IMG/VR virus record: IMGVR_UViG_3300049489_000902
Location: 1 to 62,272 of that record
DNA from: a virus
Lineage: Duplodnaviria > Caudoviricetes
DNA: 62,272 nucleotides
Strand: one strand, 5' to 3'
This document shows, in pieces, positions 6,915 to 60,017 of the stretch. Each line of letters opens with the position of its first letter. Positions within the stretch are counted from its first letter, which is position 1. Below the pieces are notes generated by a model. It was not told the origin of the DNA and ran no database searches. It worked only from the letters and a program-made list of their open reading frames with translations. Both the position numbers and the translations under genes were made by a program.

Positions 6915-6917
6915 AAC

Positions 6918-39535: not shown

Positions 39536-41037
39536 GTTATTGCCCTTGTTCTATTTTGTTCAAAAATACCATTATAATTAATAGTATCTGTTACTGAATT
39601 CTTTAAACTTCCATCAGAATTATACATTAACCATTGTATATTTGTTGGCTGTTTTTTACTATTTCTAATTATATTTACTTCTACTATCTTTTTTAATTTA
39701 GAACTAGATTCCCACCAAATTTCTTGGCTTGGAAATGGAATGCCTATAGTTTCTTTATATGCACCAGAAACAAATCCATTAGCAGGTCCTTCATCAACAA
39801 AATGAATTAATTGCCTTAATTTTTCATGATCTGTTTCATTAAGACCTGAACTTGTTCCAGAACCAGCCCCACCAGAAGGATCTCCAGTCTTATTCGATAT
39901 TATATTTACTATCTTATTTTGATTATATAATACATCTTCTTCTAATCTAGATACTTCAACACCGACTTCATTATATTGTATTGATGTAACTTTACTTATA
40001 TTTAATCCAGTATACTCTAATACATATTCTCTTACTTTTATTGTCTTAGCTGGAGATGTCCAAAAGATATAACTTGATATTTGATTACCTAAATAAGTTA
40101 CTTCTGTATATCCATCTTCAGCAATATCATGAACTAATGTGTCTAATGTTTCATGATTAGCTGTTCCAGAAGAACCACTAGATAAGCAATTAATAAAGCG
40201 TTTTCTTAAAAAATCCTCATCTAATAAATCTAATCTTTCTCTATATGGATAATAAATATTAGCATTTACTGCTTGCTCTATTGTATGAGGATAAGATATA
40301 TTATGATTTATTCCATCAAATTTTCTTATTTCAACATCAACATTATTAGGAGTTAAACTTGTTTTTGTTCGTCCAAATACAAAATATCCATCTGATGATT
40401 TTAATGAAGACCAAGATGAATCATATAATTCTACAAATGTAGCAATAATATTTCCTGCATCATATCCATCAAATACTGGAACACCTGTAATATCTGTTGA
40501 ATTTGCTATTTTTGTTACAGGTATACTGAAACTACTAACAGTTCCTAAATACAAAGAATACTTAATAGTATCTAATATAGTTTTAGCATCTGTAGTTTTA
40601 CCAGCAATATTAGATAAATTAGTATTAATATTGCTTGTAGTATCAGTTGGTCTTTTATAAGTAGGAATAGCAGAAGAATAACTATTACCTTTAATATTTG
40701 CTCTGTCAGTACGATTATAATTTAAATCATCTTCTAAAGTATATGGAGCATATTCTTGATAAGCAACATTGGATAAAGATAATGACGCATCAATTTGAAC
40801 TGTCGTAGGATTAATATAAGCAATAATTTTATAGATATTAGAATTTATGCTAATAAAATTATTTAAGCTAGCATCTGTAAATGAAGCAGTAACTAAAGTT
40901 CCTGAAACAGAACAAATGCCAGAATTAATTAATGAACCTAATTTTAAAGATTCATTAGAAGATATCATTGAATCATTATGATTTAATGATCCCGAAATAT
41001 CTAAATTTTGATTTAGGTCATGAATCCTAGTAGTCAC
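39532..41037 (-). CDS. Virion protein with duplicated C-terminal module
   Basis: HETLDTLVHDIAE...IFWTSPAKTIKV and HEKLRQLIHFVDE...IWWESSSKLKKI. Confidence 0.55.
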   Translation of the reverse strand: MTTRIHDLNQNLDISGSLNHNDSMISSNESLKLGSLINSGICSVSGTLVTASFTDASLNNFISINSNIYKIIAYINPTTVQIDASLSLSNVAYQEYAPYTLEDDLNYNRTDRANIKGNSYSSAIPTYKRPTDTTSNINTNLSNIAGKTTDAKTILDTIKYSLYLGTVSSFSIPVTKIANSTDITGVPVFDGYDAGNIIATFVELYDSSWSSLKSSDGYFVFGRTKTSLTPNNVDVEIRKFDGINHNISYPHTIEQAVNANIYYPYRERLDLLDEDFLRKRFINCLSSGSSGTANHETLDTLVHDIAEDGYTEVTYLGNQISSYIFWTSPAKTIKVREYVLEYTGLNISKVTSIQYNEVGVEVSRLEEDVLYNQNKIVNIISNKTGDPSGGAGSGTSSGLNETDHEKLRQLIHFVDEGPANGFVSGAYKETIGIPFPSQEIWWESSSKLKKIVEVNIIRNSKKQPTNIQWLMYNSDGSLKNSVTDTINYNGIFEQNRTRAIT

Positions 41038-41048
41038 ATTAGATATGC

Positions 41049-41642
41049 CTAATTATTTACTGCATAATTAGCTAGAATTTGACTTGAAGCGGCAGGAATA
41101 AAAGAAACAAATGTAACCATATCAAATCCAAAACCTGAACTAGCTACAACATAATCAATAGATTCGATTAGTCTTCTACCATTATGAAACACTTCAATTT
41201 TAAATTCATTACCATCTAATGTTTGATTTAAGAATTTATCAGGAGTATGAAATGTTCTATTTACTCCATCTTTAGGTCCAGTTAATACAATTCCTTGTTT
41301 TAAAGAATAATTAAGATTGCCTGAGCCACCTGCACTTAACCCAGTTACAATTCCAGCCGATTGTAAGAAAGCTTTTTGATCAGCATTAAATTGAATTAAA
41401 TCAATATCGCTACACATAACTACTATTTCATTACATAATATTTTATGTTTTAAAGTCCCTTTTAATAAGGAAGCTTTAATATCAGATTCCGCTACACCTG
41501 GAATTGCTAATAAATCTCTAGAGCAATGCCAACCAATAGGATAATTAAATATAGAAATAATTTTTTTCTCTATAGCCTTATTATAAACTATAAAGCAGCC
41601 AAATAATTTTTGACCATAAGCAAAGTCATTAAATCCAGACAT
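41049..41642 (-). CDS. Hypothetical virion protein
   Basis: GPKDGVNRTF...VFHNGRRL...DY motif. Confidence 0.6.
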   Translation of the reverse strand: MSGFNDFAYGQKLFGCFIVYNKAIEKKIISIFNYPIGWHCSRDLLAIPGVAESDIKASLLKGTLKHKILCNEIVVMCSDIDLIQFNADQKAFLQSAGIVTGLSAGGSGNLNYSLKQGIVLTGPKDGVNRTFHTPDKFLNQTLDGNEFKIEVFHNGRRLIESIDYVVASSGFGFDMVTFVSFIPAASSQILANYAVNN

Positions 41643-41680
41643 ATAGAATATATAACTTAATCACCTAGACAAGCATTTAT

Positions 41681-42370
41681 TTAATCATTTTTCTTAAAAC
41701 TATCACGAATTGTAATTGTTACAGATCTCTCAACTTCAGGATTTTCCGCTGTAGCTTTTACATCGCCAAATAATGTATGAATTAATTGATCATAGCTTTT
41801 TTCAGTTATATCTTTTTTAGATATAACTTTAGGTTTTAATCCAGGATTTTTCAAATCTTCATCTTTATCTAATAATATTTTTTCTATTTCTTTTATAGAT
41901 AAATCTTCTAATTTTTCTACAGTAAGACGATATCTTACAAATAATAATTCTTCTATATAATTTAAAGAACCAACTCCAGCTTGAGTTTCTGAAAAATCTC
42001 CATCATCAATACCAGATCTTAATCCTTTTTCCAATGAATTAACTAAGATTCTTAAATAAGAATTTTGAAACTCTTCTGAAGTATCATATTGTTCTTTTAA
42101 ATTAGAAGCTGCTTCTAATAGTTTTTTAAAAGCTTTTATCTTACCATTCATGCCTTCGGAAACAAATGGTTCCGATCTTGAATATGATTGTAAATTTCTT
42201 CTTGGATTAAAAAATGTTTCTTGATCTATTCTTCTGGTATCGAATGCTTGCTTAACTATAGGTTTATTTATATAATTAGCTCTTACTTTAATAGATGAAT
42301 TTCTGTCATCCAAAGTATTTTTAGATGAAGAAATTAACTCAAAGATATCAAGAGCGTCATTTATATTCAA
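41681..42370 (-). CDS. Hypothetical protein
   Basis: Intact 229-aa ORF coupled to neighbour. Confidence 0.6.
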   Translation of the reverse strand: MNINDALDIFELISSSKNTLDDRNSSIKVRANYINKPIVKQAFDTRRIDQETFFNPRRNLQSYSRSEPFVSEGMNGKIKAFKKLLEAASNLKEQYDTSEEFQNSYLRILVNSLEKGLRSGIDDGDFSETQAGVGSLNYIEELLFVRYRLTVEKLEDLSIKEIEKILLDKDEDLKNPGLKPKVISKKDITEKSYDQLIHTLFGDVKATAENPEVERSVTITIRDSFKKND

Positions 42371-42672
42371 TCAATACTCCACATTTCGACTCTAACAGCT
42401 TGTCCAGAAGCGTCCGCAGTCCTGAACCATATTGCCCCAACAACGCGATTAGAAAAGGAAACCATGGCATAAGGAGTATTATATTTTAATGTACCATGGA
42501 CTGTAGTTCCATCGAATGAATATTCAAATGTTCCAGCTGTACCTGCATGAGCTAATGAAAAACTCATATTTGTAGTTCTAAAAGGAACAGAGACATCAGG
42601 AGTAGCTGCAAATGCAGCAACAGAGACTGTAGCTAATTTATAGTAATTATAATTTGAAGCTGTATTTGCCAT
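42367..42672 (-). CDS. Small beta-rich virion protein
   Basis: FEYSFDGTTVHG...IWFR. Confidence 0.6.
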   Translation of the reverse strand: MANTASNYNYYKLATVSVAAFAATPDVSVPFRTTNMSFSLAHAGTAGTFEYSFDGTTVHGTLKYNTPYAMVSFSNRVVGAIWFRTADASGQAVRVEMWSID

Positions 42673-42681
42673 GTCATTATG

Positions 42682-42855
42682 CTAAATAATTACTCTTTTA
42701 ACCATTATTTCTTGATCCCAAAATTCATGAAATGACCAACTATATATTGGATGCTCATATTTTCTACGACCAATTCTTTGATAAGGAAGAGATCTTCTAA
42801 CTGGCACTATAGGATCTCTTTTTACACAGATATCTATTGTTTTATCATAAGTCAT
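42682..42855 (-). CDS. Array unit 18: MCP fragment (res ~72-85) + tag with read-through tail
   Basis: MTYDKTIDICVKRDPIVPVRRSLPYQRIGRRKYEHPIYSWSFHEFWDQEIMVKRVII; PVRRSLPYQRIGRR vs MCP PIRKNLDYHGIARR (7/14). Confidence 0.65.
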   Translation of the reverse strand: MTYDKTIDICVKRDPIVPVRRSLPYQRIGRRKYEHPIYSWSFHEFWDQEIMVKRVII

Positions 42856-42974
42856 TCAAACTTCCAGTTGTATATCTCATATCTAGAATATTTCCTCCAT
42901 TGTTTGACAGCACTTAAGCGAATAGTAGGATTTGAAAATAATTCAAACATAGGAAAAACATCAGGTTTATTCAT
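42852..42974 (-). CDS. Array unit 17: MCP fragment (res ~130-146) + tag
   Basis: MNKPDVFPMFELFSNPTIRLSAVKQWRKYSRYEIYNWKFE; vs MCP PTFEIYANPKVRIAEVK (8/17). Confidence 0.75.
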   Translation of the reverse strand: MNKPDVFPMFELFSNPTIRLSAVKQWRKYSRYEIYNWKFE

Positions 42975-43107
42975 AAAATGTCCAGTCATATATTTTATGA
43001 TATCCATCAATTATAGAAAATCTTCTAGTTCTTACATCAGAAATCCTAATACTAGGACATGAAGAAATTTCAAATATAGGAACTGTTACTCTGGTGCCTT
43101 TGATCAT
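42967..43107 (-). CDS. Array unit 16: MCP fragment (res ~124-154) + tag
   Basis: MIKGTRVTVPIFEISSCPSIRISDVRTRRFSIIDGYHKIYDWTFYE; vs MCP GDRVTIPTFEIYANPKVRIAEVKKRRFNVID (17/31). Confidence 0.85.
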   Translation of the reverse strand: MIKGTRVTVPIFEISSCPSIRISDVRTRRFSIIDGYHKIYDWTFYE

Positions 43108-43108
43108 T

Positions 43109-43252
43109 TTAAATTATACTTATGGTTAAATTGTCCCAAAATTCATGAAATTCAAAATCATATATTTGATACTTTCTATATGAAACGAATCCTTTCATAG
43201 CGTATCTTGTGAATAATTGCATAGTCTGAGGGCTAAATGTTATATCATCCAT
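43109..43252 (-). CDS. Array unit 15: unassigned insert (possibly gp23-type capsid motif) + tag with read-through tail
   Basis: MDDITFSPQTMQLFTRYAMKGFVSYRKYQIYDFEFHEFWDNLTISII. Confidence 0.65.
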   Translation of the reverse strand: MDDITFSPQTMQLFTRYAMKGFVSYRKYQIYDFEFHEFWDNLTISII

Positions 43253-43346
43253 AAAACTTCCAGTCATATATTTTATAAAATATGTAGCTGTAAATAACAT
43301 TAGGGCTCCAATCATAATATATTATACCGCTTTCTCCTCTAATCAT
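43245..43346 (-). CDS. Array unit 14: insert (possible tail-tube motif) + tag
   Basis: MIRGESGIIYYDWSPNVIYSYIFYKIYDWKFYG. Confidence 0.6.
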   Translation of the reverse strand: MIRGESGIIYYDWSPNVIYSYIFYKIYDWKFYG

Positions 43347-43521
43347 GAAATTTCCAATCATATATTTCATATATAGGATTTGTATTAAATACACTCCTAG
43401 CAATTCCTCTATAATCTAAATTACGTCTAATAGGAGCTGCCATTGCCATAGCAAGCTTAGCTTTACCTTCTTTAGTATGTAAATTACTTAATAACTTGCT
43501 AATAATATCATCTTTATTCAT
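43339..43521 (-). CDS. Array unit 13: MCP fragment (res ~48-84) + tag
   Basis: MNKDDIISKLLSNLHTKEGKAKLAMAMAAPIRRNLDYRGIARSVFNTNPIYEIYDWKFHD; 19/27 identical to MCP TQDGKLALAQAMANPIRKNLDYHGIAR. Confidence 0.9.
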   Translation of the reverse strand: MNKDDIISKLLSNLHTKEGKAKLAMAMAAPIRRNLDYRGIARSVFNTNPIYEIYDWKFHD

Positions 43522-43624
43522 AAAATCTCCAATCAAATATTTTATAATTACAATCAATTATAGTCATTACAGGAAATATTACAAATTCTCTTATATCAGC
43601 ATTAATAATATAGTCTTTATTCAT
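43514..43624 (-). CDS. Array unit 12: insert + tag
   Basis: MNKDYIINADIREFVIFPVMTIIDCNYKIFDWRFYE; only a faint resemblance to MCP GEFLGVMPVV. Confidence 0.6.
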   Translation of the reverse strand: MNKDYIINADIREFVIFPVMTIIDCNYKIFDWRFYE

Positions 43625-43751
43625 AAAATCGCCAATCGAATAAATAATGATAATAATCAAGAGTGGTTCGTAAAGGGCTTGTCATTAATTTAGCAAGCCT
43701 CTTTCTGCCTTTTTTAGTTTTTAATAATTTGTTTACTTTACCTTTATTCAT
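43617..43751 (-). CDS. Array unit 11: MCP fragment (res ~52-79) + tag
   Basis: MNKGKVNKLLKTKKGRKRLAKLMTSPLRTTLDYYHYLFDWRFYE; vs MCP VNRALLTQDGKLALAQAMANPIRKNLDY (13/28 ungapped). Confidence 0.8.
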   Translation of the reverse strand: MNKGKVNKLLKTKKGRKRLAKLMTSPLRTTLDYYHYLFDWRFYE

Positions 43752-43854
43752 AGAAACACCAGTCATATAAAATATAGCCTATACTTATCGTATATTTAAT
43801 ATAATTTATAGGATAAGTAATTTCATTTATTGTTATTAATGCATTTGTTACCAT
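43744..43854 (-). CDS. Array unit 10: tail-sheath C-terminal fragment + tag
   Basis: MVTNALITINEITYPINYIKYTISIGYILYDWCFYE; TYPINYIKYTISIG vs sheath TYGINFIYIKINVG. Confidence 0.65.
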   Translation of the reverse strand: MVTNALITINEITYPINYIKYTISIGYILYDWCFYE

Positions 43855-43855
43855 A

Positions 43856-44035
43856 TTATTCGCTAAATTCCCAATCATAGATAGAATATCCAAACATATT
43901 ATTCATTATATTAATAATATACGCATCTTCAGCGTCCATTATTTCTTGCTTAGCTTTATTTAGTACTTCACTGTATATAGTGTAATCATGACTGTAATCT
44001 AATTCTGAAAAATTAGGATAAATTATCTTATTCAT
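43856..44035 (-). CDS. Array unit 9: MCP fragment (res ~155-175) + tag
   Basis: MNKIIYPNFSELDYSHDYTIYSEVLNKAKQEIMDAEDAYIINIMNNMFGYSIYDWEFSE; KAKQEIMDAEDA vs MCP KARQEIMAQEDA (9/12). Confidence 0.8.
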   Translation of the reverse strand: MNKIIYPNFSELDYSHDYTIYSEVLNKAKQEIMDAEDAYIINIMNNMFGYSIYDWEFSE

Positions 44036-44129
44036 AAAACCTAAAATCGTACAAACTCATACAAGAATAACAAAAATCTATGAAGCTTTCAATATCAGAT
44101 TCTAATATCGTAAATATTGGTTCATTCAT
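44028..44129 (-). CDS. Array unit 8: unassigned insert + tag
   Basis: MNEPIFTILESDIESFIDFCYSCMSLYDFRFYE. Confidence 0.6.
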   Translation of the reverse strand: MNEPIFTILESDIESFIDFCYSCMSLYDFRFYE

Positions 44130-44271
44130 AAAACTTCCAGTCATATATTTGATTAGAACCTGCCCAAGATATTATATCCGTATAATCATTCACATTCATG
44201 AATATTCTAGGACATTGTAACGTATGGCTTTCTATTTCTTTTTGTATAGATCTAAGTTGTTTTTTATTCAT
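44122..44271 (-). CDS. Array unit 7: MCP fragment (res ~196-229) + tag
   Basis: MNKKQLRSIQKEIESHTLQCPRIFMNVNDYTDIISWAGSNQIYDWKFYE; ungapped vs MCP KRNLVDLKAQVDRWDLVTDKFFMNIVEFTDMLKW (9/34 plus conservative changes). Confidence 0.75.
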   Translation of the reverse strand: MNKKQLRSIQKEIESHTLQCPRIFMNVNDYTDIISWAGSNQIYDWKFYE

Positions 44272-44425
44272 GAAATTTCCAATCATATATTCCAGCAATT
44301 AGATAATTAAGCATAGCAAATACTGCATTATCTTCTTGTGCCATTATTTCTTGACGCTCTTTCCATTCTTTAATATCTAATATAGGATATGGTTTACGTT
44401 GAAAATTTTTCATATAATCATTCAT
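44264..44425 (-). CDS. Array unit 6: MCP fragment (res ~161-176) + tag
   Basis: MNDYMKNFQRKPYPILDIKEWKERQEIMAQEDNAVFAMLNYLIAGIYDWKFHE; RQEIMAQEDNAVFA vs MCP RQEIMAQEDANVFA (12/14). Confidence 0.88.
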   Translation of the reverse strand: MNDYMKNFQRKPYPILDIKEWKERQEIMAQEDNAVFAMLNYLIAGIYDWKFHE

Positions 44426-44540
44426 AGAAACTCCAGTCGTATATTTCATTAATGCCAAGCTCATCATTATAAAACATATGTACTAATTTATTAATTATTG
44501 GATCTTTGTTATGTATTAAATACAAATCTTCTTCATCCAT
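44418..44540 (-). CDS. Array unit 5: unassigned insert + tag
   Basis: MDEEDLYLIHNKDPIINKLVHMFYNDELGINEIYDWSFYE. Confidence 0.65.
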   Translation of the reverse strand: MDEEDLYLIHNKDPIINKLVHMFYNDELGINEIYDWSFYE

Positions 44541-44648
44541 AGAATTTCCAATCGTATACAGTAATATAGTTATAAAAAGCAAATTTAAAAATGATTGAGT
44601 AGAAATTAAATTATTTTGATACATTAAATAAATTTCTTCATCAGTCAT
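44533..44648 (-). pseudogene. Array unit 4: frameshifted cassette (tag in -1 frame; the 0 frame reads into unit 5)
   Basis: ATG-to-tag-stop span is 116 nt; 0 frame MTDEEIYLMYQNNLISTQSFL..., -1 frame ...KFAFYNYITVYDWKFYG*. Confidence 0.55.
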
Positions 44649-44772
44649 AAAATTTCCAATCATTAATATAATTAACTATGTCCACATAATAAAAATGTGT
44701 AAATAAAGTTTTAATCTTAGTATCAGCTGCGTATCTGTAATCATACATAGAATGTATATCAATATTATTCAT
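44641..44772 (-). CDS. Array unit 3: unassigned insert + tag
   Basis: MNNIDIHSMYDYRYAADTKIKTLFTHFYYVDIVNYINDWKFYD. Confidence 0.65.
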   Translation of the reverse strand: MNNIDIHSMYDYRYAADTKIKTLFTHFYYVDIVNYINDWKFYD

Positions 44773-44848
44773 AAAATCTCCAAATATAAATATTATTTGG
44801 TAATTCAAGATATTCTGGAAGATAAGTAGGTTGACAAAATTCAATCAT
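44765..44848 (-). CDS. Array unit 2: unassigned insert + tag
   Basis: MIEFCQPTYLPEYLELPNNIYIWRFYE. Confidence 0.6.
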   Translation of the reverse strand: MIEFCQPTYLPEYLELPNNIYIWRFYE

Positions 44849-45041
44849 TAAATTTCCAATCATATATTTCATGTATACTAAATTTACCAATACCTCTAGC
44901 ATTTACTATTCCTATGCCAATCGTCTCATAACATGTCCAACCAATTAGCTTATTCTTTGGTTCATCTGCATCAAGAACAGTTATTTCTTGTTTTACTGGA
45001 ATTTTACCAACAAATTCAATATCACCACTTTTATAAATCAT
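44841..45041 (-). CDS. Array unit 1: MCP C-terminal fragment (res ~282-323) + tag
   Basis: EFVGKIPVKQEITVLDADEPKNKLIGWTCYETIGIGIVNARG vs MCP EFLGVMPVVQDIEVLPADEPKLLSIGWVVSEIIGIGIVNPRG (27/42), then IYDWKFND. Confidence 0.9.
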   Translation of the reverse strand: MIYKSGDIEFVGKIPVKQEITVLDADEPKNKLIGWTCYETIGIGIVNARGIGKFSIHEIYDWKFND

Positions 45042-45095
45042 AGATCCTATATATCAATCACCTATAAATATCTCATTTTACCCTCAGCTTTGCCG

Positions 45096-45124
45096 TTGAC
45101 TATTCCATCCATGCTAAGTATCCT
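45096..45124 (+). promoter_or_regulatory. Sigma70-like promoter for the HNH pair
   Basis: TTGACT-17 nt-TATCCT, ~50 nt upstream of ATG 45176. Confidence 0.45.
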
Positions 45125-45175
45125 TACTGCATCAGCGCTCAAAATGTGCCCATTCTTATTAAGGAAAAATATATT

Positions 45176-45889
45176 ATGGCTTCTCTTGATCTTACAAACA
45201 AAATTTTTGGTAAACTTACTGCACTACACACTGTCCCGAATAAACCTGGCGACCGCCATATTAAATGGAAGTGCAAATGTGAATGCGGTAATTTTCACCA
45301 TGTTACAACTAATCAACTTACTTCAGGAAGATCAACTCACTGCGGTTGCGTTAAACCTGAATCAAAAAGAAAAATTGACATAACTAATAGAAAATTTGGC
45401 AAATTAACCGCCATTGAACCAACTTACCATAATGAAAAACTAAAGTGGAAATGTATTTGTGAATGTGGCAAAGAATGCATTGTTATTACAGATAAATTAA
45501 TGTCTGGTCACACTAAATCTTGTGGTTGTAATAAGATAACTGTACATTACGATAATCATTATAGAAGAAATGCTTCTAATGGAAGTGGAGTTCTAACTGA
45601 ACTTAAATCTTATTTTCAACAAAGATATTCTGATGGAAATCTAACCTTTGAACAATTTGAAGAATTATCAAAAAATAATTGCCATTATTGTGGTGCTGGT
45701 CCATCAAATACAATTAAATTAAAGTATAAAGATTATACGGCATTTATTAAATATAATGGTTTAGATAGAAAAGACAATAATAAAAAGCACGATTCAGACA
45801 ATGTAGTGACTTGTTGTAAGAACTGTAATTATTCAAAAAGAAATAGTTCATATGCAGAATTTTCGGAAAGGATTGGTAAAGGATTATGA
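45176..45889 (+). CDS. HNH homing-endonuclease-like protein with two N-terminal FGKLT..WKCxCECG DNA-binding repeats
   Basis: Start moved to ATG 45176 (AAGGA upstream); CHYCG...NGLDRKDN...NVVTCCKNCNYSK. Confidence 0.8.
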   Translation: MASLDLTNKIFGKLTALHTVPNKPGDRHIKWKCKCECGNFHHVTTNQLTSGRSTHCGCVKPESKRKIDITNRKFGKLTAIEPTYHNEKLKWKCICECGKECIVITDKLMSGHTKSCGCNKITVHYDNHYRRNASNGSGVLTELKSYFQQRYSDGNLTFEQFEELSKNNCHYCGAGPSNTIKLKYKDYTAFIKYNGLDRKDNNKKHDSDNVVTCCKNCNYSKRNSSYAEFSERIGKGL

Positions 45890-46497
45890 GTTTAGTAAAT
45901 AAAAAATTTGGAAGATTAACTGTTTTAAGAGAGGTTAGAAAAGGAAAAACTCTTAGAAAAATATACTGGGATTGCTTATGTGATTGCGGTAAAGAAACTA
46001 ATGTCTATGGCGTTTATTTAGTTAATGGAGATACTAAATCTTGTGGGTGTTTAAAAACTGAAAAGAAACCAGGTTTAAAGAAACCAAAGTCAAGAGAACA
46101 TTATCAAAGAGGTTCTGCTAAAAAAGCATATTCAACCTCATATACAAATGAAGGAGATACCATTTCATTTGAAGATTTTTATAGGTTAGCACAAATGGAT
46201 TGTTATTATTGTGGACAAAAACCAATTAACGCAATTAATGCGTATAATGATAAGAGATACCTTCCAGAAGCAAAAGAAAATGGAAAATTTATCTATAATG
46301 GACTAGATAGAGTTGATAATAGTCTGCCTCACACATTAGAAAATTGTGTTACTTGTTGTAAACATTGTAATTATGCAAAAAGAGATATGTCTCAGCAAAA
46401 ATTTTTAGAATATCGCCAACAAAGATTTAATCATTTCCAAAAAAGTAAAGAATTTTTTGAAGGAGAAATTAAATTAAAAGAAATTTTAAACCGTTAA
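45886..46497 (+). CDS. HNH homing-endonuclease-like protein (paralog of upstream gene)
   Basis: FGRLTV..WDCLCDCG..KSCGC; CYYCG...NGLDRVDN...NCVTCCKHCNYAK. Confidence 0.8.
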   Translation: MSLVNKKFGRLTVLREVRKGKTLRKIYWDCLCDCGKETNVYGVYLVNGDTKSCGCLKTEKKPGLKKPKSREHYQRGSAKKAYSTSYTNEGDTISFEDFYRLAQMDCYYCGQKPINAINAYNDKRYLPEAKENGKFIYNGLDRVDNSLPHTLENCVTCCKHCNYAKRDMSQQKFLEYRQQRFNHFQKSKEFFEGEIKLKEILNR

Positions 46498-46519
46498 AGA
46501 TTATAAATATAATAAAAAC

Positions 46520-46554
46520 AAAAACGCTCAGGATTTTAGCCCTGAGCGTTTTTT
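46520..46554. terminator. Bidirectional intrinsic terminator between convergent HNH and MCP genes
   Basis: AAAAACGCTCAGG-N8-CCTGAGCGTTTTT. Confidence 0.85.
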
Positions 46555-46573
46555 ATGTCTTTAATTCAGCGAA

Positions 46574-47578
46574 TTATCCGACTGAAACTGATTTACGACC
46601 AGCAGCGCAACCACGAGGATTGACGATACCAATTCCGATAATCTCAGAAACAACCCAACCAATTGAAAGCAATTTGGGTTCGTCAGCAGGAAGAACTTCA
46701 ATGTCTTGGACCACAGGCATAACACCTAGGAACTCGCCAGCCGCTGAACCGTATACGGTACCTTGTGGAACAATCTTACTTACAAGAACATCAGCACCCC
46801 AGATATGGGCATAAAGACCAGTTTGGAGAACTTCGCGCATGGTAACGGGATCGAGATCTCCACCACCTACGCCTTGTCCACCACCTGAACCCCACTTTAA
46901 CATATCGGTAAATTCAACAATGTTCATGAAGAATTTATCAGTTACGAGGTCCCAACGATCAACTTGGGCTTTAAGATCAACTAAGTTCCTCTTTAATAGA
47001 CCGGTGTCAGCTAAGTCGATAAGAGTATTTTCAACTGAAGCAGCGGAATCAATGGCAGCGAAAACGTTTGCGTCTTCTTGAGCCATGATTTCTTGACGTG
47101 CTTTTTGAACGGCACGGTCAATAACGTTAAATCTGCGTTTTTTGACTTCGGCAATACGAACCTTGGGATTCGCGTAAATTTCAAAGGTAGGAATCGTAAC
47201 GCGGTCGCCGAATACACGGCTTTCTGGACCTGAACCATTTGAAGAAATTACAACGGCAGCAACATCAATATCTCTTTCGTATGAGATCTGTTGACCCTGT
47301 TGAACATTCTCAACAACTAAGGCACGACGAGCAATTCCATGGTAATCTAAATTCTTACGAATTGGATTCGCCATAGCTTGAGCAAGAGCTAATTTACCGT
47401 CTTGTGTTAAGAGGGCACGGTTAACCATGTCATCTTTTTCGGCATCACTGGCTTCACGAGTAAGACCAGCGTTTGAAGGCATATTATCATCAAGAATTGA
47501 AGCATATTTCGCGATAGTGGCGAAAGCTTCTTTGACAGAAGAGGCGTTAAGTTCGCCTTGAGCATTAAACATAGACAT
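46574..47578 (-). CDS. Major capsid protein (HK97-fold)
   Basis: 334 aa; follows protease-scaffold and decoration genes; visibly higher GC/biased codons; AGGAG RBS; strong terminator; spine-helix-like QKARQEIMAQEDANVF and C-terminal EIIGIGIVNPRG. Confidence 0.85.
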   Translation of the reverse strand: MSMFNAQGELNASSVKEAFATIAKYASILDDNMPSNAGLTREASDAEKDDMVNRALLTQDGKLALAQAMANPIRKNLDYHGIARRALVVENVQQGQQISYERDIDVAAVVISSNGSGPESRVFGDRVTIPTFEIYANPKVRIAEVKKRRFNVIDRAVQKARQEIMAQEDANVFAAIDSAASVENTLIDLADTGLLKRNLVDLKAQVDRWDLVTDKFFMNIVEFTDMLKWGSGGGQGVGGGDLDPVTMREVLQTGLYAHIWGADVLVSKIVPQGTVYGSAAGEFLGVMPVVQDIEVLPADEPKLLSIGWVVSEIIGIGIVNPRGCAAGRKSVSVG

Positions 47579-47695
47579 CTTTATTTCTCCTAAGAATTGA
47601 ATTTATTTGCCGATTTCTCAGCGAAAATCACTCGTTATAAAACAAGCTTAAAATTATAGTAATTTATGCATTAAAAAATGCATCAAAAATAAAAA

Positions 47696-47727
47696 AAAAT
47701 GGATGAGAAATTAATCTCATCCATTTT
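47696..47727 (-). terminator. Hairpin/terminator between decoration gene and MCP
   Basis: AAAATGGATGAGA-N6-TCTCATCCATTTT with a T-run on the minus strand. Confidence 0.65.
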
Positions 47728-47753
47728 AAGTTAACTAAGTATCTTATTACGAA

Positions 47754-48383
47754 TTAGTAACCAGCAGTGAAGTGAACAACAACATAGTCGTAAGTACGAG
47801 TAGATAAGCTGTTAACTAAATTAGCAGGAGTTGTAACGAGTGAGCCTTTTGTTTCAAAATCAATGAAACGAGCAACTGGTCCACCGAGAATACCGGCAGC
47901 AGTGGTTAATACACCAGCAGTAGTTACGCCTAGAGCAGCACCAGCAACGATTGAAGCGGTAGGAGCAATAGTTGCATCAACTGTATCAAGTGAGATTGCG
48001 TAAAGACCTGGTTTATCCCAAGCAGTTACTTTTCCTGAACCTAAAGCACTTGTTGGACCGAGAACGGTTCCAGAAATACTTTGTCCAGCAGTTCCACCAA
48101 CAACAGTTCCGAAGATAGTTCCGTAACCGGCAATACCTTCATCAGCTAACATTACAGGTTTCTTGGTAGAATCGTCACCAGTCGTTACTTTACGAACAAC
48201 GGGGCGTTTTAATGAATTGAGGTAACCATCAAATGCACCGTCACGAGCAGATTTATCAGAACCAGCAAGAGTAACTGAATCAAATACTAAAACTTCTCCA
48301 CCTTTAATGGTGGTTAGGTCAGCATCGAGGCAGTCATATTGACCGATTGGAAAGATACCAGGTTGTAAAACTTTAAGAGCCAT
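47754..48383 (-). CDS. Capsid decoration/cement-like protein
   Basis: Adjacent to MCP, same codon bias, Gly/Ala/Thr-rich; MLADEG...GSGKVTAW. Confidence 0.6.
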   Translation of the reverse strand: MALKVLQPGIFPIGQYDCLDADLTTIKGGEVLVFDSVTLAGSDKSARDGAFDGYLNSLKRPVVRKVTTGDDSTKKPVMLADEGIAGYGTIFGTVVGGTAGQSISGTVLGPTSALGSGKVTAWDKPGLYAISLDTVDATIAPTASIVAGAALGVTTAGVLTTAAGILGGPVARFIDFETKGSLVTTPANLVNSLSTRTYDYVVVHFTAGY

Positions 48384-48462
48384 ATTAATTTCCTATTTAT
48401 TTTAACTTACATCTTGCCAAATAATAATTGGCTACAAAATCTATATTTAAATATTGCTATAA

Positions 48463-49803
48463 TTATTGCTTTTTAAATTCTTTTTCCCAAGAACTTAGTT
48501 GTTCATCAGAAATATCTTTTTCTTTTACTTCTTTTGTAGCAGATTTAGCAGATTCTATTTTCTCTTTACATTGTTCTTCTATACTTTTAATATTCAAAAT
48601 ACCTTCACAATTAGCAATTAATACACCTAAATAATCTTCTAGTTCTTTATAATTGCTTTCAACCAATCCCATTCTTCCAGAGAAGAAAGATTTTGCTCTT
48701 CCTAGTAATTTATCAATACCAGAAGGATTTTTAATTGCATTTGTTATATAGTCATCATTTTGAATATCTCTATATAAAGCCTTTATTTGTGGTAAGTAAG
48801 AGATAATAGTATTTACTAATTCATTCTTAGCACTTATAATAGAATTTATCTCAGCTTTATTTGAATTAGCAATATTTAATGTTCTTAATTTTTCAAGAAC
48901 AGGGTAATTTTTATTATATGAATCTAAAATCTCATGAGAGATAGTTTTCAGATTATTTAATCTTTGGATGAAAGTTTCTGATAATTCATCTTCAAACCAA
49001 GACCAATCAAACTTAAGCATATCAGAAAGTAAATCATCAATATTTTCAACGGTAACATTTATATTAGTAACAGGTTCATCAAGTCTATTTAGTAGCCAGT
49101 TTCCCGCTAATAAAACAGCTCCAACAGAAGCTCCTACAAGAGCAACAGTTCCCCAAATTGGAGCAGTTGCAGTTACGCCAGTAATAGCGGCAGTTTCAGC
49201 GGCAATTGTTGCAGCAGTTCCGGTTGCGGCAGCACCAGCGGCAGCAGAGGCGCCACCTCTAAGAGCTAAAGGGAGGGCAGCCACGCCAATACTGGCAACA
49301 TCAGGAGAACCGCTTTTATCTTTTTTTCCAGCAGCATTAGCTAAAGGAGCAGCTTTAAAAGCCTTTGATAAAACATTAGTAAACCAATTAGCTTCTTTTT
49401 TTAATTGAAGCAAACAAGTGTCTGCTAAAATTCTAATTTGCTCATCTGATTCATCATTAAAATTAGCAATAGAAATTAAAGAAGTAGCTAATTCATGTTG
49501 ACATGTTTTAACTCTACCTAATTGACCATTAGTTTTTTTATTAACAATATTAATGTCAATATTTTGTTGTTGATATAAATCAGGAACAACGCCATTTAGT
49601 TTATTATGAGAAGGAGAGACGATAGCCATTTCTTTATGCGCGTCATCGCTATGATCTTTAAGAGACTTTTCTTTTTTAAGATTATAAAGCTCTTTAGTTT
49701 TAGCAATATTACCTGGGTCTAATCTAGAAGTAGAATCATCGGCTTCAGAAATTAAACCTCTGGCAATGGCTAATTTAGCAAATTCATTAAAATAATCATT
49801 CAT
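48463..49803 (-). CDS. Probable internal head/ejection protein with long Ala/Gly hydrophobic segment
   Basis: IGVAALPLAL...GTVALVGASVGAVLLAG; in the head cluster. Confidence 0.5.
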   Translation of the reverse strand: MNDYFNEFAKLAIARGLISEADDSTSRLDPGNIAKTKELYNLKKEKSLKDHSDDAHKEMAIVSPSHNKLNGVVPDLYQQQNIDINIVNKKTNGQLGRVKTCQHELATSLISIANFNDESDEQIRILADTCLLQLKKEANWFTNVLSKAFKAAPLANAAGKKDKSGSPDVASIGVAALPLALRGGASAAAGAAATGTAATIAAETAAITGVTATAPIWGTVALVGASVGAVLLAGNWLLNRLDEPVTNINVTVENIDDLLSDMLKFDWSWFEDELSETFIQRLNNLKTISHEILDSYNKNYPVLEKLRTLNIANSNKAEINSIISAKNELVNTIISYLPQIKALYRDIQNDDYITNAIKNPSGIDKLLGRAKSFFSGRMGLVESNYKELEDYLGVLIANCEGILNIKSIEEQCKEKIESAKSATKEVKEKDISDEQLSSWEKEFKKQ

Positions 49804-59400: not shown

Positions 59401-60017
59401 CAATCTGTACAAACTGCTTTTCCAACTGCTGTACCCATTGATACATCATTAGAATAACCAGTTGAAACTTTTCTTGCCAAGTCAGGATAATTAATTTTAT
59501 CTAATGCACAAAGAGCAATTACTCTTTTTAATTTACGATCATAGTAAGTATCAACAATAAATCCTCTTACAAAGTCAACTGAACTTGATTTATGATCAAT
59601 ACAAAGTGGCTTTCCAACCCACTTCTTATGTGCAATTAATAGCTCTTTTTCAGGGAAAATGTCAGCGTTGGCATTTTTGTATGGCTTAATTGAAGGGTCA
59701 TTAGATTTCCACTTCATTGATTCGCCAGTAACTTCCCAACCTACTTGAACTTCTTCTCCCTTAGCAGTTAATTTAACTGTACCATCATCATTTAATGATG
59801 AAGCTTCAGCAGCGTGCATCATAATAGCTGAGAAATAAAGAAAATCATCAGCTTTAGGAGCTACTTTTCTTTTTTCGGCATCAGCCTTTGATTCTTTTTT
59901 AAATTCAGTAATGGTTTCGGCGAATTTTGCTAATATAGCAGGGTCTACTTGAGATATTGATGTTTCAGTTGATTCAATGCGTTCAATCTGATAAGCTTCG
60001 CCTATTTTAATAAACAT
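56448..60017 (-). CDS. Prohead protease fused to long acidic scaffold
   Basis: NANADIFP..EL, GKPLCIDH, VSMG, CTDCG..CEH, ELSIVVNGAD protease motifs; acidic coiled-coil remainder with an internal ~75-aa duplication (AYFQGT.../AYHAGT...). Confidence 0.75.
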   Translation of the reverse strand: MFIKIGEAYQIERIESTETSISQVDPAILAKFAETITEFKKESKADAEKRKVAPKADDFLYFSAIMMHAAEASSLNDDGTVKLTAKGEEVQVGWEVTGESMKWKSNDPSIKPYKNANADIFPEKELLIAHKKWVGKPLCIDHKSSSVDFVRGFIVDTYYDRKLKRVIALCALDKINYPDLARKVSTGYSNDVSMGTAVGKAVCTDCGRVARAEKDFCEHMRHKTCYGEINLDLSPIELSIVVNGADRKAKIKNIVASVNALNSYVAQKQNKLNKIANEYSANLSFNNKEGLSENISLNTNSLDELKADLEKAIERIEKLQEEMDSSDVDSSDAFTGDTEQLTTPGQRYAQETEISSAKEITAELSEKINMMQATLADLTTKISKITEEETMSKKTAYFQGTVDPVKGGTQYPADPMNAKLRDEDRQMKVDDLGGSTGLAPGDLEKKKLLARASQRLNALSAAKAALESRAYHAGTEAPVGKGKQQYKVDPGNEEARKGDKHMQGKKPFPEVGKVEDLYPGDKEIKQKLSRGEKLTGKFVKSAKVTDSAWKVFVGETLVREASVADLLDVDSSLSVDKIATAEFGKILLQEVRAQVTELPEMVVTPSTAKPVDPNLGKKLDEETDKVLKGLDTNKADTILPADVIVPNVLVAISQTGKMRRLTPAEAATAKEGTVLPDGSVVKSKPEDAVNMILGLPKLGQAAPEMTTAEPAAPVSPVVAPADVEDPTAKIEDISSQIQNLSSDLVEAVRALTGEQSEMGEIAAEPTAPVTATASLQVMRKQLNSGLVDAMKESLASLNDHSEELAQIVSVYENNAVTTENASVISSVTEDSIADAKTAIADGFQLLNAFVKYARSSDMIMKRAQMESELAETTESEDVSDEEAEALIAELLNDEVVTDEIKDDEVALSEIEAEQDAIESELADLDRAAADDCEACDEQDIKGDFNPTTNKLTLDLAQASDRATLRAKLASEFNPILNEAHPQGSAKLDLDITVSDDLDEVEDLEAIHTKVVDVATSNPNVRKEALAIRNLIATGSITASELDSLVAEGVDAAAVAYYKKYYANAEGGSEFAAELVKEHAKASQEAEMDAHKVKLAEAWELVEAMADRGLCLNVREAKAAQVDKILKFNAEGLESFKNIVAQAPTLTVKTAGFIPQVGTRGEGESTHAPVEDNDIVRVLSNSLGKKQRLF

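What the first reader, a model, noticed from the sequence alone, without database searches (positions are those of the whole stretch)
42682..45041. Array of 18 tagged mini-genes carrying shuffled fragments of the major capsid protein: candidate new system
Seen: 18 consecutive minus-strand cassettes of 27-66 aa, each with a variable N-terminal insert and a conserved tag (I/L)YDWxF(Y/H)(E/D). Nine inserts align in frame with the MCP at 46574..47578: unit 1 res 282-323 (27/42), unit 6 161-174 (12/14), unit 7 196-229 (9/34), unit 9 159-170 (9/12), unit 11 52-79 (13/28), unit 13 58-84 (19/27), unit 16 124-154 (17/31), unit 17 130-146 (8/17), unit 18 72-85 (7/14). The order is not collinear with the MCP, segments are sampled repeatedly, and 17 of 18 frames are intact. 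Established: bacterial defences detect virion proteins (CapRel-SJ46 binds a phage MCP, Lit is activated by the T4 gp23 Gol peptide, DSR2 by tail tube, with DSAD1 as a competing phage inhibitor), and satellites interfere with helper capsid assembly. Inference: an expandable library of capsid-epitope peptides acting either as decoys for capsid-sensing immunity or as dominant-negative poisons of related phages' capsid assembly. I do not recognise this architecture from any described system.
Basis: partly seen in the sequence, partly recalled or inferred. Interest (0 to 1): 0.97.

Follow-up and report, generated by a model that had tools for sequence, protein, structure and literature searches.

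The report
Capsid-fragment mini-gene array, giant phage
An uncultured giant phage carries, just beyond its capsid gene, a chain of 18 tiny overlapping genes that all end in the same short peptide; half are recognisably built from pieces of the capsid protein, and the design looks selected, is untested for function, and belongs to a wider family of capsid-piece proteins that I did not find described.

Summary
Seventeen are intact ORFs, with 0 in-frame stops against 74 and 136 in the other two frames. Each start codon overlaps or abuts the previous stop. Nine inserts are significantly similar to the phage's own major capsid protein (MCP; 0-2 of 1000 shuffles reach the score).

The window is the structural module of a phage-G-like huge phage. 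None of 80 relatives has the array. Independent runs hold near-identical arrays with whole units missing and without the HNH pair, so this is not a misassembly.

New here: the units belong to a wider family of small proteins built from the same MCP segments. At least 60 such proteins are in public data, and two relatives carry members. One foreign orthologue keeps the same tag.

Tag, start codons and deeply conserved MCP residues look selected. Inserts change fast.

Function is untested. My best guess is MCP mimics used in a conflict, most likely as decoys for capsid-sensing immunity.

This scan's AI notes report similar tagged fragment arrays in at least 8 other huge phages.

The parts
44841..45041 (-). 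Unit 1 (66 aa): MCP 275-323-like segment plus tag. It has its own AGGA ribosome-binding site 6 nt before the ATG.
   Evidence: z 24.5; phrog_2522 E 9.6e-7
44765..44848 (-). Unit 2 (27 aa): no recognisable source, plus tag
44641..44772 (-). Unit 3 (43 aa): no recognisable source, plus tag
44418..44648 (-). Units 4 and 5. The start frame of unit 4 reads through junction 4 into unit 5 (76 aa). The tag of unit 4 (44533-44559) is out of frame. Unit 5 alone is 44418-44540 (40 aa).
44264..44425 (-). Unit 6 (53 aa): MCP 146-177-like segment (probable spine helix) plus tag
   Evidence: z 10.6
44122..44271 (-). Unit 7 (49 aa): MCP 196-235-like segment plus tag
   Evidence: z 10.2; phrog_2522 E 1.8e-4
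44028..44129 (-). Unit 8 (33 aa): no recognisable source; tag variant without Trp
43856..44035 (-). Unit 9 (59 aa): MCP 150-172-like segment plus tag; paralogue of unit 6
   Evidence: (z 5.8)
43744..43854 (-). Unit 10 (36 aa): no recognisable source, plus tag
43617..43751 (-). Unit 11 (44 aa): MCP 52-80-like segment plus tag. It is closer to a foreign mini-protein (P0028) than to any MCP.
   Evidence: (z 13.2)
43514..43624 (-). Unit 12 (36 aa): no significant source. Its 3' part is a DNA-level paralogue of the end of unit 16. The unit is absent from one related run.
   Evidence: family D3, 83% over 63 nt; joint 43510>43614
43339..43521 (-). Unit 13 (60 aa): MCP 48-84-like segment running collinearly into the tag. 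A foreign orthologue, P0059, carries the same tag.
   Evidence: z 20.1; phrog_2522 E 6.3e-5
43245..43346 (-). Unit 14 (33 aa): no significant source, plus tag
43109..43252 (-). Unit 15 (47 aa): no recognisable source. The tag is followed by a 10-residue tail with no stop at the usual place.
42967..43107 (-). Unit 16 (46 aa): MCP 124-154-like segment plus tag
   Evidence: z 19.8; phrog_2522 E 2.3e-3
42852..42974 (-). Unit 17 (40 aa): MCP 130-149-like segment plus shortened tag; paralogue of unit 16
   Evidence: (z 9.8)
42682..42855 (-). Unit 18 (57 aa): MCP 72-85-like segment, tag, then a 13-residue tail that aligns with the linker of foreign multi-module proteins
   Evidence: (z 4.4)
46574..47578 (-). 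Major capsid protein gene (334 aa), the family from which the fragments derive
   Evidence: phrog_2522 E 5e-69; PDB 6WKK, phage G gp27, E 5e-81
46520..46553 (.). Two-way terminator-like hairpin just after the MCP gene
45146..46497 (+). Two tandem HNH endonuclease genes between the MCP and the array. They are a recent insertion, absent from one related run, and not a necessary part of the array.
   Evidence: phrog_374 E 1.8e-30 and 1.1e-17; joint 45058>46560
42367..42672 (-). 101-aa gene directly after the array on the same strand, with no terminator-like site between. It is the first of the downstream structural genes.

Best explanation
The array is a translationally coupled operon of about 17 mini-proteins that evolved from the phage's major capsid protein family.

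How it is read. One mRNA is started near 45042-45145. In relatives without the HNH insertion it may instead be read through from the capsid gene. It is translated unit by unit: the ribosome stops at the tag's stop codon and restarts at an ATG that overlaps or abuts it.

What each product is. Each is a short piece of the capsid protein, or a piece diverged beyond recognition, followed by a C-terminal aromatic-acidic tag. The pieces are the N-arm/E-loop base, P-domain strands, the spine helix, an A-domain helix and the C-terminal strands; these names are inferred from the HK97 fold. The tag is itself probably the diverged end of the N-arm/E-loop piece.

How it changes. Units are gained and lost by recombination between the junction repeats.

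What it most likely does. The peptides act as molecular mimics of surfaces of the unassembled capsid protein in a genetic conflict. My preferred version is that they compete for host immune sensors that recognise capsid protein, acting as non-activating decoys made at the same time as the capsid protein.

Shown: the anatomy, the capsid origin, signs of selection, unit turnover, and membership in a wider family.
Inferred: transcription, restart translation, the origin of the tag, and the whole functional part.
For: Coding and coupling
- In-frame stops are 0, against 74 and 136 off-frame. The codon-usage likelihood favours the proposed frame in 17 of 17 units.
- Every unit's ATG overlaps or abuts the preceding stop.
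- The codon that supplies the AT of the restart ATG ends in T in 16 of 16 cases. The other aromatic codon of the tag ends in C in 5 of 18 (p 0.046).

Tag selected as a peptide
- Differences between copies are most often synonymous in the tag frame: 18 synonymous to 35 non-synonymous, against 8:41 and 15:36 in the other frames. Differences by codon position are 21, 18 and 31.
- A foreign orthologue of unit 13 (P0059) is only 32/60 identical yet keeps the tag.

Capsid origin

Selection on capsid-like residues
- Units keep 60 of 81 residues that are conserved down to 31-47%-identical capsid proteins, against 72 of 193 other residues (Fisher p 3e-8).

Wider family using the same segments
- 22 foreign hits to unit 13 among 1.84 billion representatives are nearly all 56-212 aa.
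- 50 small proteins were found with a profile.
- Relatives G004 and G008 carry members far from the capsid gene.
- Units 11, 13, 16 and 18 score higher against these proteins than against any of 80 capsid proteins; units 6, 9 and 17 score about the same against both.

Conflict-type evolution
- The array is absent from 80 of 80 relatives with about 75%-identical capsid proteins.
- Whole-unit differences separate near relatives.
- In the array, 7 differences are synonymous and 13 non-synonymous; in flanking structural genes, 13 and 3 (p 0.008).

Timing
- The array sits in the late structural block, with no terminator-like site between it and the downstream structural genes.

Plausibility of the target
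- Capsid proteins are sensed by bacterial immune receptors: Avs7 and Dsr1 (PMC13581612, abstract and passages). CapRel and Lit/Gol are recalled.
Against: - There is no expression evidence of any kind.
- No partner is known.
- Between near relatives the inserts change almost as a neutral sequence would (7 synonymous to 13 non-synonymous in only 20 sites, taken from the 40 best-supported of 458 differences). Much of each insert may therefore be unconstrained.
- Nine of 18 inserts have no recognisable source. No source was found for the five of them that I also searched in five near-complete relatives' genomes.
- The deep-site test would also come out positive if the units were copied from a distant capsid lineage.
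- A copy of an immune trigger could activate immunity rather than block it.
- The family's members in relatives lie in tRNA/HNH regions, not beside the capsid gene, so a link to capsid expression timing is not general.
- Nothing separates the decoy version from the assembly-interference version.
Confidence: 0.38

Rival explanations
1. Assembly interference between phages. The mini-proteins bind capsid protein subunits of co-infecting related phages, or regulate the phage's own subunits. They do so by occupying the sites normally taken by a neighbour's N-arm, E-loop or P-domain strands, so they act as dominant-negative fragments.
For: - The retained residues are the ones conserved in all capsid proteins of this group, as expected for subunit contacts.
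- The capsid locus of this phage group is a hotspot for homing endonucleases. That suggests strong competition between co-infecting relatives (inference).
- Family members in G004, G008 and this window all lie within about 2 kb of an HNH gene.
Against: - The fragments would poison the phage's own, very similar capsid protein as well. The sampled segments are nearly invariant across 80 relatives, so no self/non-self discrimination is visible.
- There are no binding data.
Confidence: 0.22
2. Evolutionary debris. The array is the decaying remnant of duplicated capsid gene pieces, produced by endonuclease-induced breaks and sloppy repair. It has no function of its own; the junction repeats are kept alike by unequal crossing-over.
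For: - HNH genes crowd this locus in many relatives.
- A phage homing endonuclease can drive segmental amplification of neighbouring DNA (SegB; PMC13096335, abstract).
- The inserts evolve fast.
- Half of the inserts are unrecognisable.
- One unit is already out of frame.
Against: - Paralogous units have diverged to about 35-50% identity, yet 17 of 18 frames are open in DNA whose other frames carry 74 and 136 stops.
- Restart ATGs are kept.
- Tag changes are biased to synonymous sites.
- The tag survives in a 53%-identical foreign orthologue.
- The same capsid segments recur in independent lineages with a different architecture.
Confidence: 0.13
3. Head-associated cargo or helper. The tag is an address label that takes the peptides into the procapsid or onto an assembly factor such as scaffold, protease or decoration protein. 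The capsid-like parts help them co-assemble.
For: - The array lies inside the head gene block.
- Short shared peptides direct proteins into T4 heads (capsid targeting sequence; recalled).
Against: - The array is absent from 80 of 80 relatives that share all the head genes, so it is not part of the conserved assembly pathway.
- The label is C-terminal and not followed by a recognisable protease site.
- Family members in relatives lie far from the head genes.
Confidence: 0.1
4. One long protein made by +1 frameshifting. Ribosomes shift +1 at each junction and produce a multi-module protein like the in-frame multi-module family members.
For: - Fifteen of 17 steps between units are +1.
- In-frame multi-module relatives exist: P0017, P0019, P0026 and the G008 gene.
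Against: - A start codon is kept at every junction, with a GG-containing stretch 6-8 nt upstream.
- The codon before the stop cannot re-pair in the +1 frame (inference from the sequence and from the known prfB-type mechanism, recalled).
Confidence: 0.05
5. DNA-level role. The fragments serve as recombination templates for capsid gene variation or for repair after endonuclease cuts.
For: The fragments lie beside the capsid gene and beside endonuclease genes.
Against: - Protein identity to the capsid protein is only 28-59%, too low for homologous recombination (inference).
- Selection is visible at the peptide level.
Confidence: 0.02

Closest known systems
Uncharacterised small proteins built of MCP segments in phage-G-like huge phages
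   Same: - They use the same MCP segments: about 48-106, a 72-87 variant, 123-155, 156-185, 196-232 and 288-322.
- The same variant residues set some units apart from real capsid proteins.
- One member (P0059) has the same C-terminal tag.
- They lie near HNH genes.

   Different: - Most start with an M-[EK]-H motif (32 of 62) and join modules in frame through a linker (15 of 62).
- The window's array has a C-terminal tag with stop-restart junctions, many more units, and a position beside the capsid gene.
- No source names any of these proteins beyond 'hypothetical protein'.
Bodo saltans virus ankyrin-repeat ORFs carrying fragments of essential viral genes (Deeg et al. 2018, PMC5871332; passages read)
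   Same: A large virus fuses fragments of its own essential proteins to a common module in an expanded, fast-changing gene set. The authors propose decoys for host defence.
   Different: - It is a eukaryotic giant virus.
- The common module is a whole ankyrin-repeat domain, not an 8-10-residue tag.
- The genes are dispersed at the genome ends, not coupled mini-ORFs.
- The decoy idea is untested there too.
- The figure supplement that lists the fragments was not seen.
Capsid-sensing bacterial immunity: Avs7 and Dsr1 (PMC13581612, abstract and passages); T4 Gol peptide with Lit/EF-Tu and CapRel-SJ46 (recalled, no call)
   Same: They show that capsid protein, and even a short internal capsid peptide, is a trigger that host defences bind. 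That gives capsid mimics a plausible target.
   Different: These are host systems. No phage-encoded capsid-fragment antagonist is described in what I read. No homology to the Gol region was tested.
Eukaryotic microProteins: small dominant-negative proteins derived from larger ones (recalled, no call)
   Same: Small proteins that evolved from a piece of a larger protein and act by competing for its partners.
   Different: They are single genes, not tagged arrays, and there is no link to viruses.
T4 internal proteins with the capsid targeting sequence, and the hyperplastic internal-protein locus (recalled, no call)
   Same: A fast-changing row of small phage genes shares one short peptide.
   Different: - That label is N-terminal, is cut by the head protease and targets the head interior.
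- The cargoes are not capsid fragments.
SegB-driven segmental amplification of anti-defence loci in T-even phages (PMC13096335, abstract)
   Same: A homing endonuclease next to a small accessory locus promotes repeat expansion. The G008 family members even lie in a tRNA cluster beside an HNH-like gene.
   Different: - That amplification concerns whole identical segments arising in the laboratory, not old diverged units.
- The HNH pair here is absent from a near relative that has the array.

Membership tests
HK97-fold major capsid protein (PHROG 2522; phage G gp27 type) | Match over the whole profile (about 318 positions) or fold | tested here: not met
   Units match only 31-52 profile positions each. 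They are fragments, not capsid proteins.
HK97-fold major capsid protein (PHROG 2522; phage G gp27 type) | Significant sequence similarity to the family | tested here: met
   Met for 9 of 18 units by shuffle test. 4 of 17 scanned units hit the profile at E < 0.01.
   Unit 13 finds 22 foreign proteins, nearly all 56-212 aa. Units 11, 13, 16 and 18 score higher against members than against 80 capsid proteins.
   No unit starts this way. Only the tail of unit 18 aligns with a linker. 32 of 62 members have the motif.
CRISPR array | Near-identical repeats of 23-50 nt separated by non-coding spacers of uniform length | tested here: not met
   Repeat cores of 24-28 nt are 71-86% alike. Repeat spacing is 76-246 nt and the stretches between are coding. 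Tandem Repeats Finder reports nothing in the array.
CRISPR array | cas genes nearby | not tested
   No dedicated search was made. None of the 26 window ORFs scanned against PHROGs outside the array is annotated as Cas.
T4-type capsid targeting sequence proteins | Shared N-terminal signal removed by the head protease | tested here: not met
   The shared element is C-terminal. The N-termini share only M-N-x, which the overlap with the previous stop forces.
PeSL-type mobile regulatory cassettes of T4-type phages (recalled) | Each small gene flanked by an early promoter and a stem-loop terminator | tested here: not met
   There is no terminator-like site inside 42682-45041. Promoter-like sites number 36, against 38.8 expected from shuffles.
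Virus decoy fusions of the Bodo saltans virus type | Fragment of an essential viral protein fused to a common module | tested here: met
Virus decoy fusions of the Bodo saltans virus type | The common module is an ankyrin-repeat domain | tested here: not met
   The module is 8-10 residues long. Pfam finds nothing in unit 13; the other units were not scanned against Pfam.
Programmed +1 frameshift polyprotein | Shift-prone site at each junction and no need for start codons | tested here: inconclusive
   15 of 17 steps are +1, but an ATG is kept at every junction.
Known RNA families (group I intron and others) | Match to an Rfam model | tested here: not met
   0 matches in the whole window at gathering thresholds.

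The most novel reading that the evidence does not exclude
Huge phages keep evolvable libraries of mini-proteins cut from their own capsid protein, and in other phages from other core proteins. Each carries a short common handle. They serve as decoys that blind host immune receptors recognising conserved phage proteins. The library is reshuffled by recombination at the handle-coding repeats, a protein-level counterpart of an immune repertoire on the phage side. This window would be its most array-like example, and the M-[EK]-H family its widespread form.
Probability: 0.25. Interest if true: 0.93.

Novelty: categorically new. Interest (0 to 1): 0.8.

Why it matters
If the peptides are made and act as capsid mimics, this would be a counter-defence or competition principle not described for phages in what I could search: a modular, recombining set of fragments of the phage's own most conserved protein. 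It would matter in three ways.

- It would give direct handles on how capsid-sensing immunity (Avs7, Dsr1, CapRel, Lit) recognises its trigger, because the phage has already marked the six capsid segments that matter.
- It would explain part of the small-ORF 'dark matter' of huge phages.
- It would supply natural peptide inhibitors to test.

Even without a function, the finding defines a family of at least 60 small proteins, whose only source names are 'hypothetical protein', that current annotation misses or mislabels.

Tried and rejected
Searches for the same array elsewhere
- None of the 80 capsid loci from IMG/VR has the tag or a secondary capsid fragment (only 3 weak hits, E 0.45-2.9).
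- No comparable repeat family lies in the hotspot of 8 relatives, out of the 80 loci held.
- Degenerate tag patterns gave only single chance matches in viral contigs (4 and 7 stretches) and in metagenome contigs (81 stretches). None of the 4 and none of the other 88 loci held a second tag.
- Two further tag patterns found nothing in viral contigs.
- A profile of all units found only the window's own 10 proteins among 37 candidates. That search missed P0059, so it was not exhaustive.
- Unit 1 against longer proteins gave 9 candidates and none scored.
- A combined pattern for the family's N-terminal motif and core found nothing in viral contigs.
- P0016 was not found in viral contigs.
- P0016 and P0017 hit only capsid genes in named phages.

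Other sources for the nine unexplained inserts
- No other window protein matches them.
- No PHROG family matches.
- Units 3, 4/5, 15, 10 and 12 were searched in five relatives' genomes, 83-100% complete by the tool's estimate. Only two chance-level hits appeared, E 0.07 and 0.02. The control, unit 16, hit the capsid gene in 5 of 5.
- Units 2, 8 and 14 were not searched there.
- The note that unit 15 resembles T4 gp23 was not tested against T4.

Structure
- The AlphaFold2 model of the capsid protein was unusable (pLDDT 36.5).
- The model of family member P0047 was moderate (pLDDT 71.4): a small N-terminal hairpin, helices at 24-59 and an unstructured C-terminus. Foldseek against the PDB found nothing. 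My idea that the N- and C-terminal strands pair got no support from this model.
- The protein atlas gave no usable hit for P0017.

Binding
- Complex prediction of unit 13 with the mature capsid protein returned 'no answer' (score 0.00). This counts neither for nor against binding.

Expression
- No RNA holder was listed for the stretch.
- Promoter-like sites are not enriched.

RNA elements
- There is no Rfam match in the window.

Literature
- Six full-text searches listed no paper on phage arrays of capsid-fragment mini-genes. I judged this from titles and abstract starts only.
- Supplements were closed and not asked for. The Bodo saltans virus figure supplement and the Avs7 gene-library tables might bear on the comparison.

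Ideas rejected
- CRISPR-like array, regulatory cassettes, silent cassettes for capsid variation and intron remnants. The reasons are in the membership table and the rival explanations.

Full report
CONTEXT

The 62-kb window is the whole record held for this genome. Nearly all long ORFs are on the minus strand. PHROG matches include:
- a major head protein (46574-47578, phrog_2522, E 5e-69);
- a head maturation protease domain (56448-60017);
- a tail sheath (11304-14060).

The capsid protein (MCP) is 46.7% identical to gp27 of Bacillus phage G. It aligns from residue 43 onward with the solved phage G capsid chain 6WKK (E 5e-81), so the first 40 or so residues are probably a propeptide (inference).

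Eighty loci from IMG/VR encode MCPs 73-77% identical, many on contigs of 200-480 kb. The window therefore comes from a phage-G-like huge phage.

In the loci longer than 12 kb the gene order is 446-aa gene, 209-aa gene, MCP, variable stretch, 229-aa gene, 197-aa gene. The variable stretch runs from about 0.13 kb (L068) to about 5.3 kb (L076) and often holds HNH genes on either side of the MCP. The array occupies this hotspot.

THE OBSERVATION

Eighteen copies of the tag lie on the minus strand of 42682-45041.

I defined each unit from the ATG nearest the previous tag's stop codon. This gives 17 ORFs of 27-66 aa. The tag of unit 4 has no in-frame start, and unit 4's start frame reads through into unit 5.

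In 15 of 17 steps the next unit lies in the +1 frame. In most junctions the start ATG lies inside the last two tag codons, 5 nt before the stop. In the rest it overlaps or follows the stop within 3 nt.

The units have no in-frame stop, while their other two frames have 74 and 136. A codon model trained on 20 long genes of the window prefers the proposed frame in 17 of 17 units.

Nine inserts are similar to the MCP well beyond shuffled controls, and the MCP is their best match among all 69 long ORF segments of the window. Four of them hit the MCP profile at E < 0.01 and a fifth at E 0.17.

The covered MCP ranges are:
- 48-85 (units 11, 13, 18);
- 124-154 (units 16, 17);
- 146-177 (units 6, 9);
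- 196-235 (unit 7);
- 275-323 (unit 1).

The propeptide is not covered. Units that cover the same range are paralogues of each other. Unit 12 shares 83% of 63 nt with the end of unit 16 although its protein no longer scores. So at least some 'unexplained' units are capsid-derived units diverged beyond recognition (inference).

IT IS NOT A MISASSEMBLY, AND IT TURNS OVER BY UNITS

One public run holds the whole stretch. It may be the source sample and is not counted as independent. Three other runs from other studies hold parts of it. I laid all four on 40000-49000.

Run X4 carries a phage about 3-6% different in the flanking genes, with these differences from the window:
- a contig joins 45058 to 46560, so both HNH genes are missing and 48 other letters stand there;
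- a joint from 43510 to 43614 removes exactly unit 12, and 17 letters fit both sides, which is the junction repeat;
- a joint from 44289 to 44574 removes 284 nt spanning units 4-6;
- its contigs run on into unlike sequence below 42696 and beyond 44952.

Run X2 covers units 2-5, 6-10 and 15-17 at 92-98% identity and also departs below 42901.

So the array directly follows the MCP gene in a near relative. The HNH pair is a recent insertion, and whole units come and go at the junction repeats.

WHAT IS UNDER SELECTION

1. Open frames and restart codons, as described above. In addition, the codon that supplies the AT of the restart ATG ends in T in 16 of 16 cases, while the tag's first aromatic codon ends in C in 5 of 18 (p 0.046).

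2. The tag as a peptide. Copies differ mostly at third positions of the tag frame (21, 18 and 31 differences at positions 1, 2 and 3). Eighteen of 53 changed codons are synonymous there, against 8 of 49 and 15 of 51 in the other frames. Homogenisation by recombination could keep repeats alike inside one array. It cannot explain that P0059, a 60-aa protein from another assembly, is only 32/60 identical to unit 13 yet ends in the same tag.

3. Capsid-like key residues. Within the aligned stretches, units keep 60 of 81 MCP residues that are also conserved in at least three of four MCPs only 31-47% identical. They keep 72 of 193 other residues (p 3e-8). Caveat: the same pattern would arise if the units had been copied from a distant MCP lineage.

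4. The rest of each insert is only weakly constrained. I took the 40 best-supported differences of 458 between the window and runs X2 and X4 and used 39 of them. Twenty fall in the array: 7 synonymous and 13 non-synonymous. Sixteen fall in flanking structural genes: 13 synonymous and 3 non-synonymous. Three are intergenic (p 0.008). The sample is small and was not chosen by me.

A WIDER FAMILY

Unit 13 was scored against 1.84 billion representatives and gave 22 foreign hits at E <= 1e-3. Nearly all are proteins of 56-212 aa; none is a full-length MCP. One 673-aa repeat protein, P0014, looks unrelated.

A profile built from these hits found 50 small proteins of 56-187 aa, some on contigs of 100-460 kb. 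One of them is on record on 82 contigs. The only names any source gives are 'hypothetical protein'.

Their sequences carry the MCP N-arm block (about 48-106).
- 32 of 62 begin M-[EK]-H followed by a short hydrophobic stretch. A moderate AlphaFold2 model folds this start as a small hairpin. It resembles MCP residues about 103-116 (my reading).
- 15 of 62 are multi-module. The same motif recurs as an in-frame linker between blocks that correspond to MCP 48-106, a 72-87 variant, 123-155, 156-185 and 288-322.

Two of 14 relatives' records searched carry members far from their MCP gene.
- G004 has a 121-aa gene that hits phrog_2522 at E 3e-7, with an HNH gene 1.9 kb downstream. It is preceded by a small ORF with the same start motif.
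- G008 has three tandem genes inside a cluster of five tRNA genes and beside an HNH-like ORF. They carry the 72-87 variant, the 183-229 segment, and four blocks in one 214-aa protein.

The window's units belong to this family:
- units 11, 13, 16 and 18 score higher against family members than against any of 80 MCPs, and units 6, 9 and 17 score about the same against both;
- unit 18 and the G008 and P0018 modules share a variant of the core motif that no MCP has;
- unit 7's best partner is the G008 gene with the same segment;
- the tail of unit 18 aligns with a family linker.

The same six MCP segments are thus reused in independent lineages under two different architectures. I take this as the strongest sign that the choice of segments is functional.

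ORIGIN OF THE TAG AND JUNCTION (INFERENCE)

In unit 13 and P0059 the MCP-like block runs collinearly into the tag. Single-module family members end at the same place with an x-Y-D-K-D type acidic end, which aligns with MCP residues about 98-106. The tag is therefore probably the diverged end of the N-arm/E-loop block, later shared by all units.

Units 15 and 18 keep a form without the stop. Compared with it, the common junction is 2 nt shorter between the tag and the next conserved Asp codon (my reading). A small deletion in an in-frame linker could thus have created the stop-restart junction that then spread by unit duplication.

MECHANISM

Shown: the anatomy, the capsid origin, the selection signals, the unit turnover and the family membership.

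Inferred: the array is transcribed with the late structural genes. There is a terminator-like hairpin after the MCP gene, none inside the array, and none before the downstream 101-aa gene. Translation passes from unit to unit by termination and restart.

Function is unknown. Three facts speak for an accessory role in a conflict rather than a role in the conserved assembly pathway: the array is absent from 80 relatives that share all the head genes, units turn over quickly, and insert evolution is relaxed.

Capsid proteins are known triggers of bacterial immunity: Avs7 and Dsr1 (PMC13581612), and Lit/Gol and CapRel (recalled). The nearest published idea is the decoy proposal for Bodo saltans virus ankyrin fusions that carry fragments of essential viral genes (PMC5871332).

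My estimates:
- decoys or competitive mimics for capsid-sensing immunity: about 0.38;
- interference with capsid assembly of co-infecting relatives: about 0.22;
- debris: about 0.13;
- head cargo or helper: about 0.10;
- frameshifted polyprotein: about 0.05;
- DNA-level template: about 0.02.
The remainder is for something not thought of.

A published case in which a homing endonuclease amplifies neighbouring anti-defence loci (SegB; PMC13096335, abstract) offers a way for such arrays to grow next to HNH genes. However, the HNH pair here is younger than the array.

NOVELTY

- Pfam has no family for the MCP, for unit 13 or for eight family members.
- PHROGs sees only the MCP profile.
- Named phages show only their capsid genes.
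- Six literature searches listed nothing on such arrays in phages (titles and abstract starts only).
- AI notes of this scan report tagged mini-proteins carrying fragments of core proteins in at least eight other huge phages, with other tags. I did not check those. If they hold, this window is one instance of a recurrent huge-phage design, and the one in which all recognisable cargo comes from the capsid protein.

WHAT IS NOT SETTLED

- Expression.
- Partners.
- The content of the related arrays.
- The source of nine inserts.
- Whether the deep-site retention reflects selection within the units or descent from a distant MCP.

Noticed in passing
window 45059-46559 (HNH genes 45146-45889 and 45886-46497, + strand): The tandem HNH pair is missing from a near relative. 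A contig of run X4 joins 45058 to 46560 with 48 other letters between. HNH genes flank the capsid gene on either side in many of the 80 relatives.
   Followed up: partly
L193 (G008:C1:43298-46600), ORFs 1093-1287, 1297-1479, 1501-2145: A relative has three tandem genes, each starting with the family's N-terminal motif and carrying capsid segments. They sit inside a cluster of five tRNA genes (Ala, Ala, Gln, Gln, Met) and next to an HNH-like ORF at 2367-2981. This is about 209 kb from that phage's capsid gene.
   Followed up: partly
L177 (G004:C1:408000-418000), ORFs 4163-4315 and 4355-4720: A 121-aa gene made of two capsid segments (phrog_2522 E 3e-7) is preceded by a small ORF with the same start motif but unrelated cargo. 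An HNH endonuclease gene lies at 6590-7168.
   Followed up: partly
window 42367-42672 (-), and L018, L078, L079: The 101-aa gene after the array has no PHROG match. In three relatives it recurs within the same variable hotspot, as tandem pairs in two of them (L018 and L078).
   Followed up: no
window 46574-47578 (-), residues 1-42 of the capsid protein: The solved phage G capsid chain aligns only from residue 43, and no array unit covers residues 1-47. This fits an N-terminal propeptide that is removed on maturation.
   Followed up: no
window 43027-43052 (unit 16): Eight of the listed differences to runs X2 and X4 cluster within 26 nt; six of them change the amino acid. This looks like a replaced patch, or local diversification, in one unit.
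   Followed up: no
protein P0014 (673 aa): This is a highly repetitive protein of about 70-residue repeats. It matched the end of unit 13 in 9 stretches. The match is probably spurious, driven by composition or repeats, and unrelated to the family.
   Followed up: no
other genomes (AI notes e1-6149012, e1-6122894): Two notes of this scan report group I introns splitting relatives' capsid genes. The split lies at the N-P / I-R site in the middle of the most often sampled segment, which is also the start of the 72-87 module.
   Followed up: no
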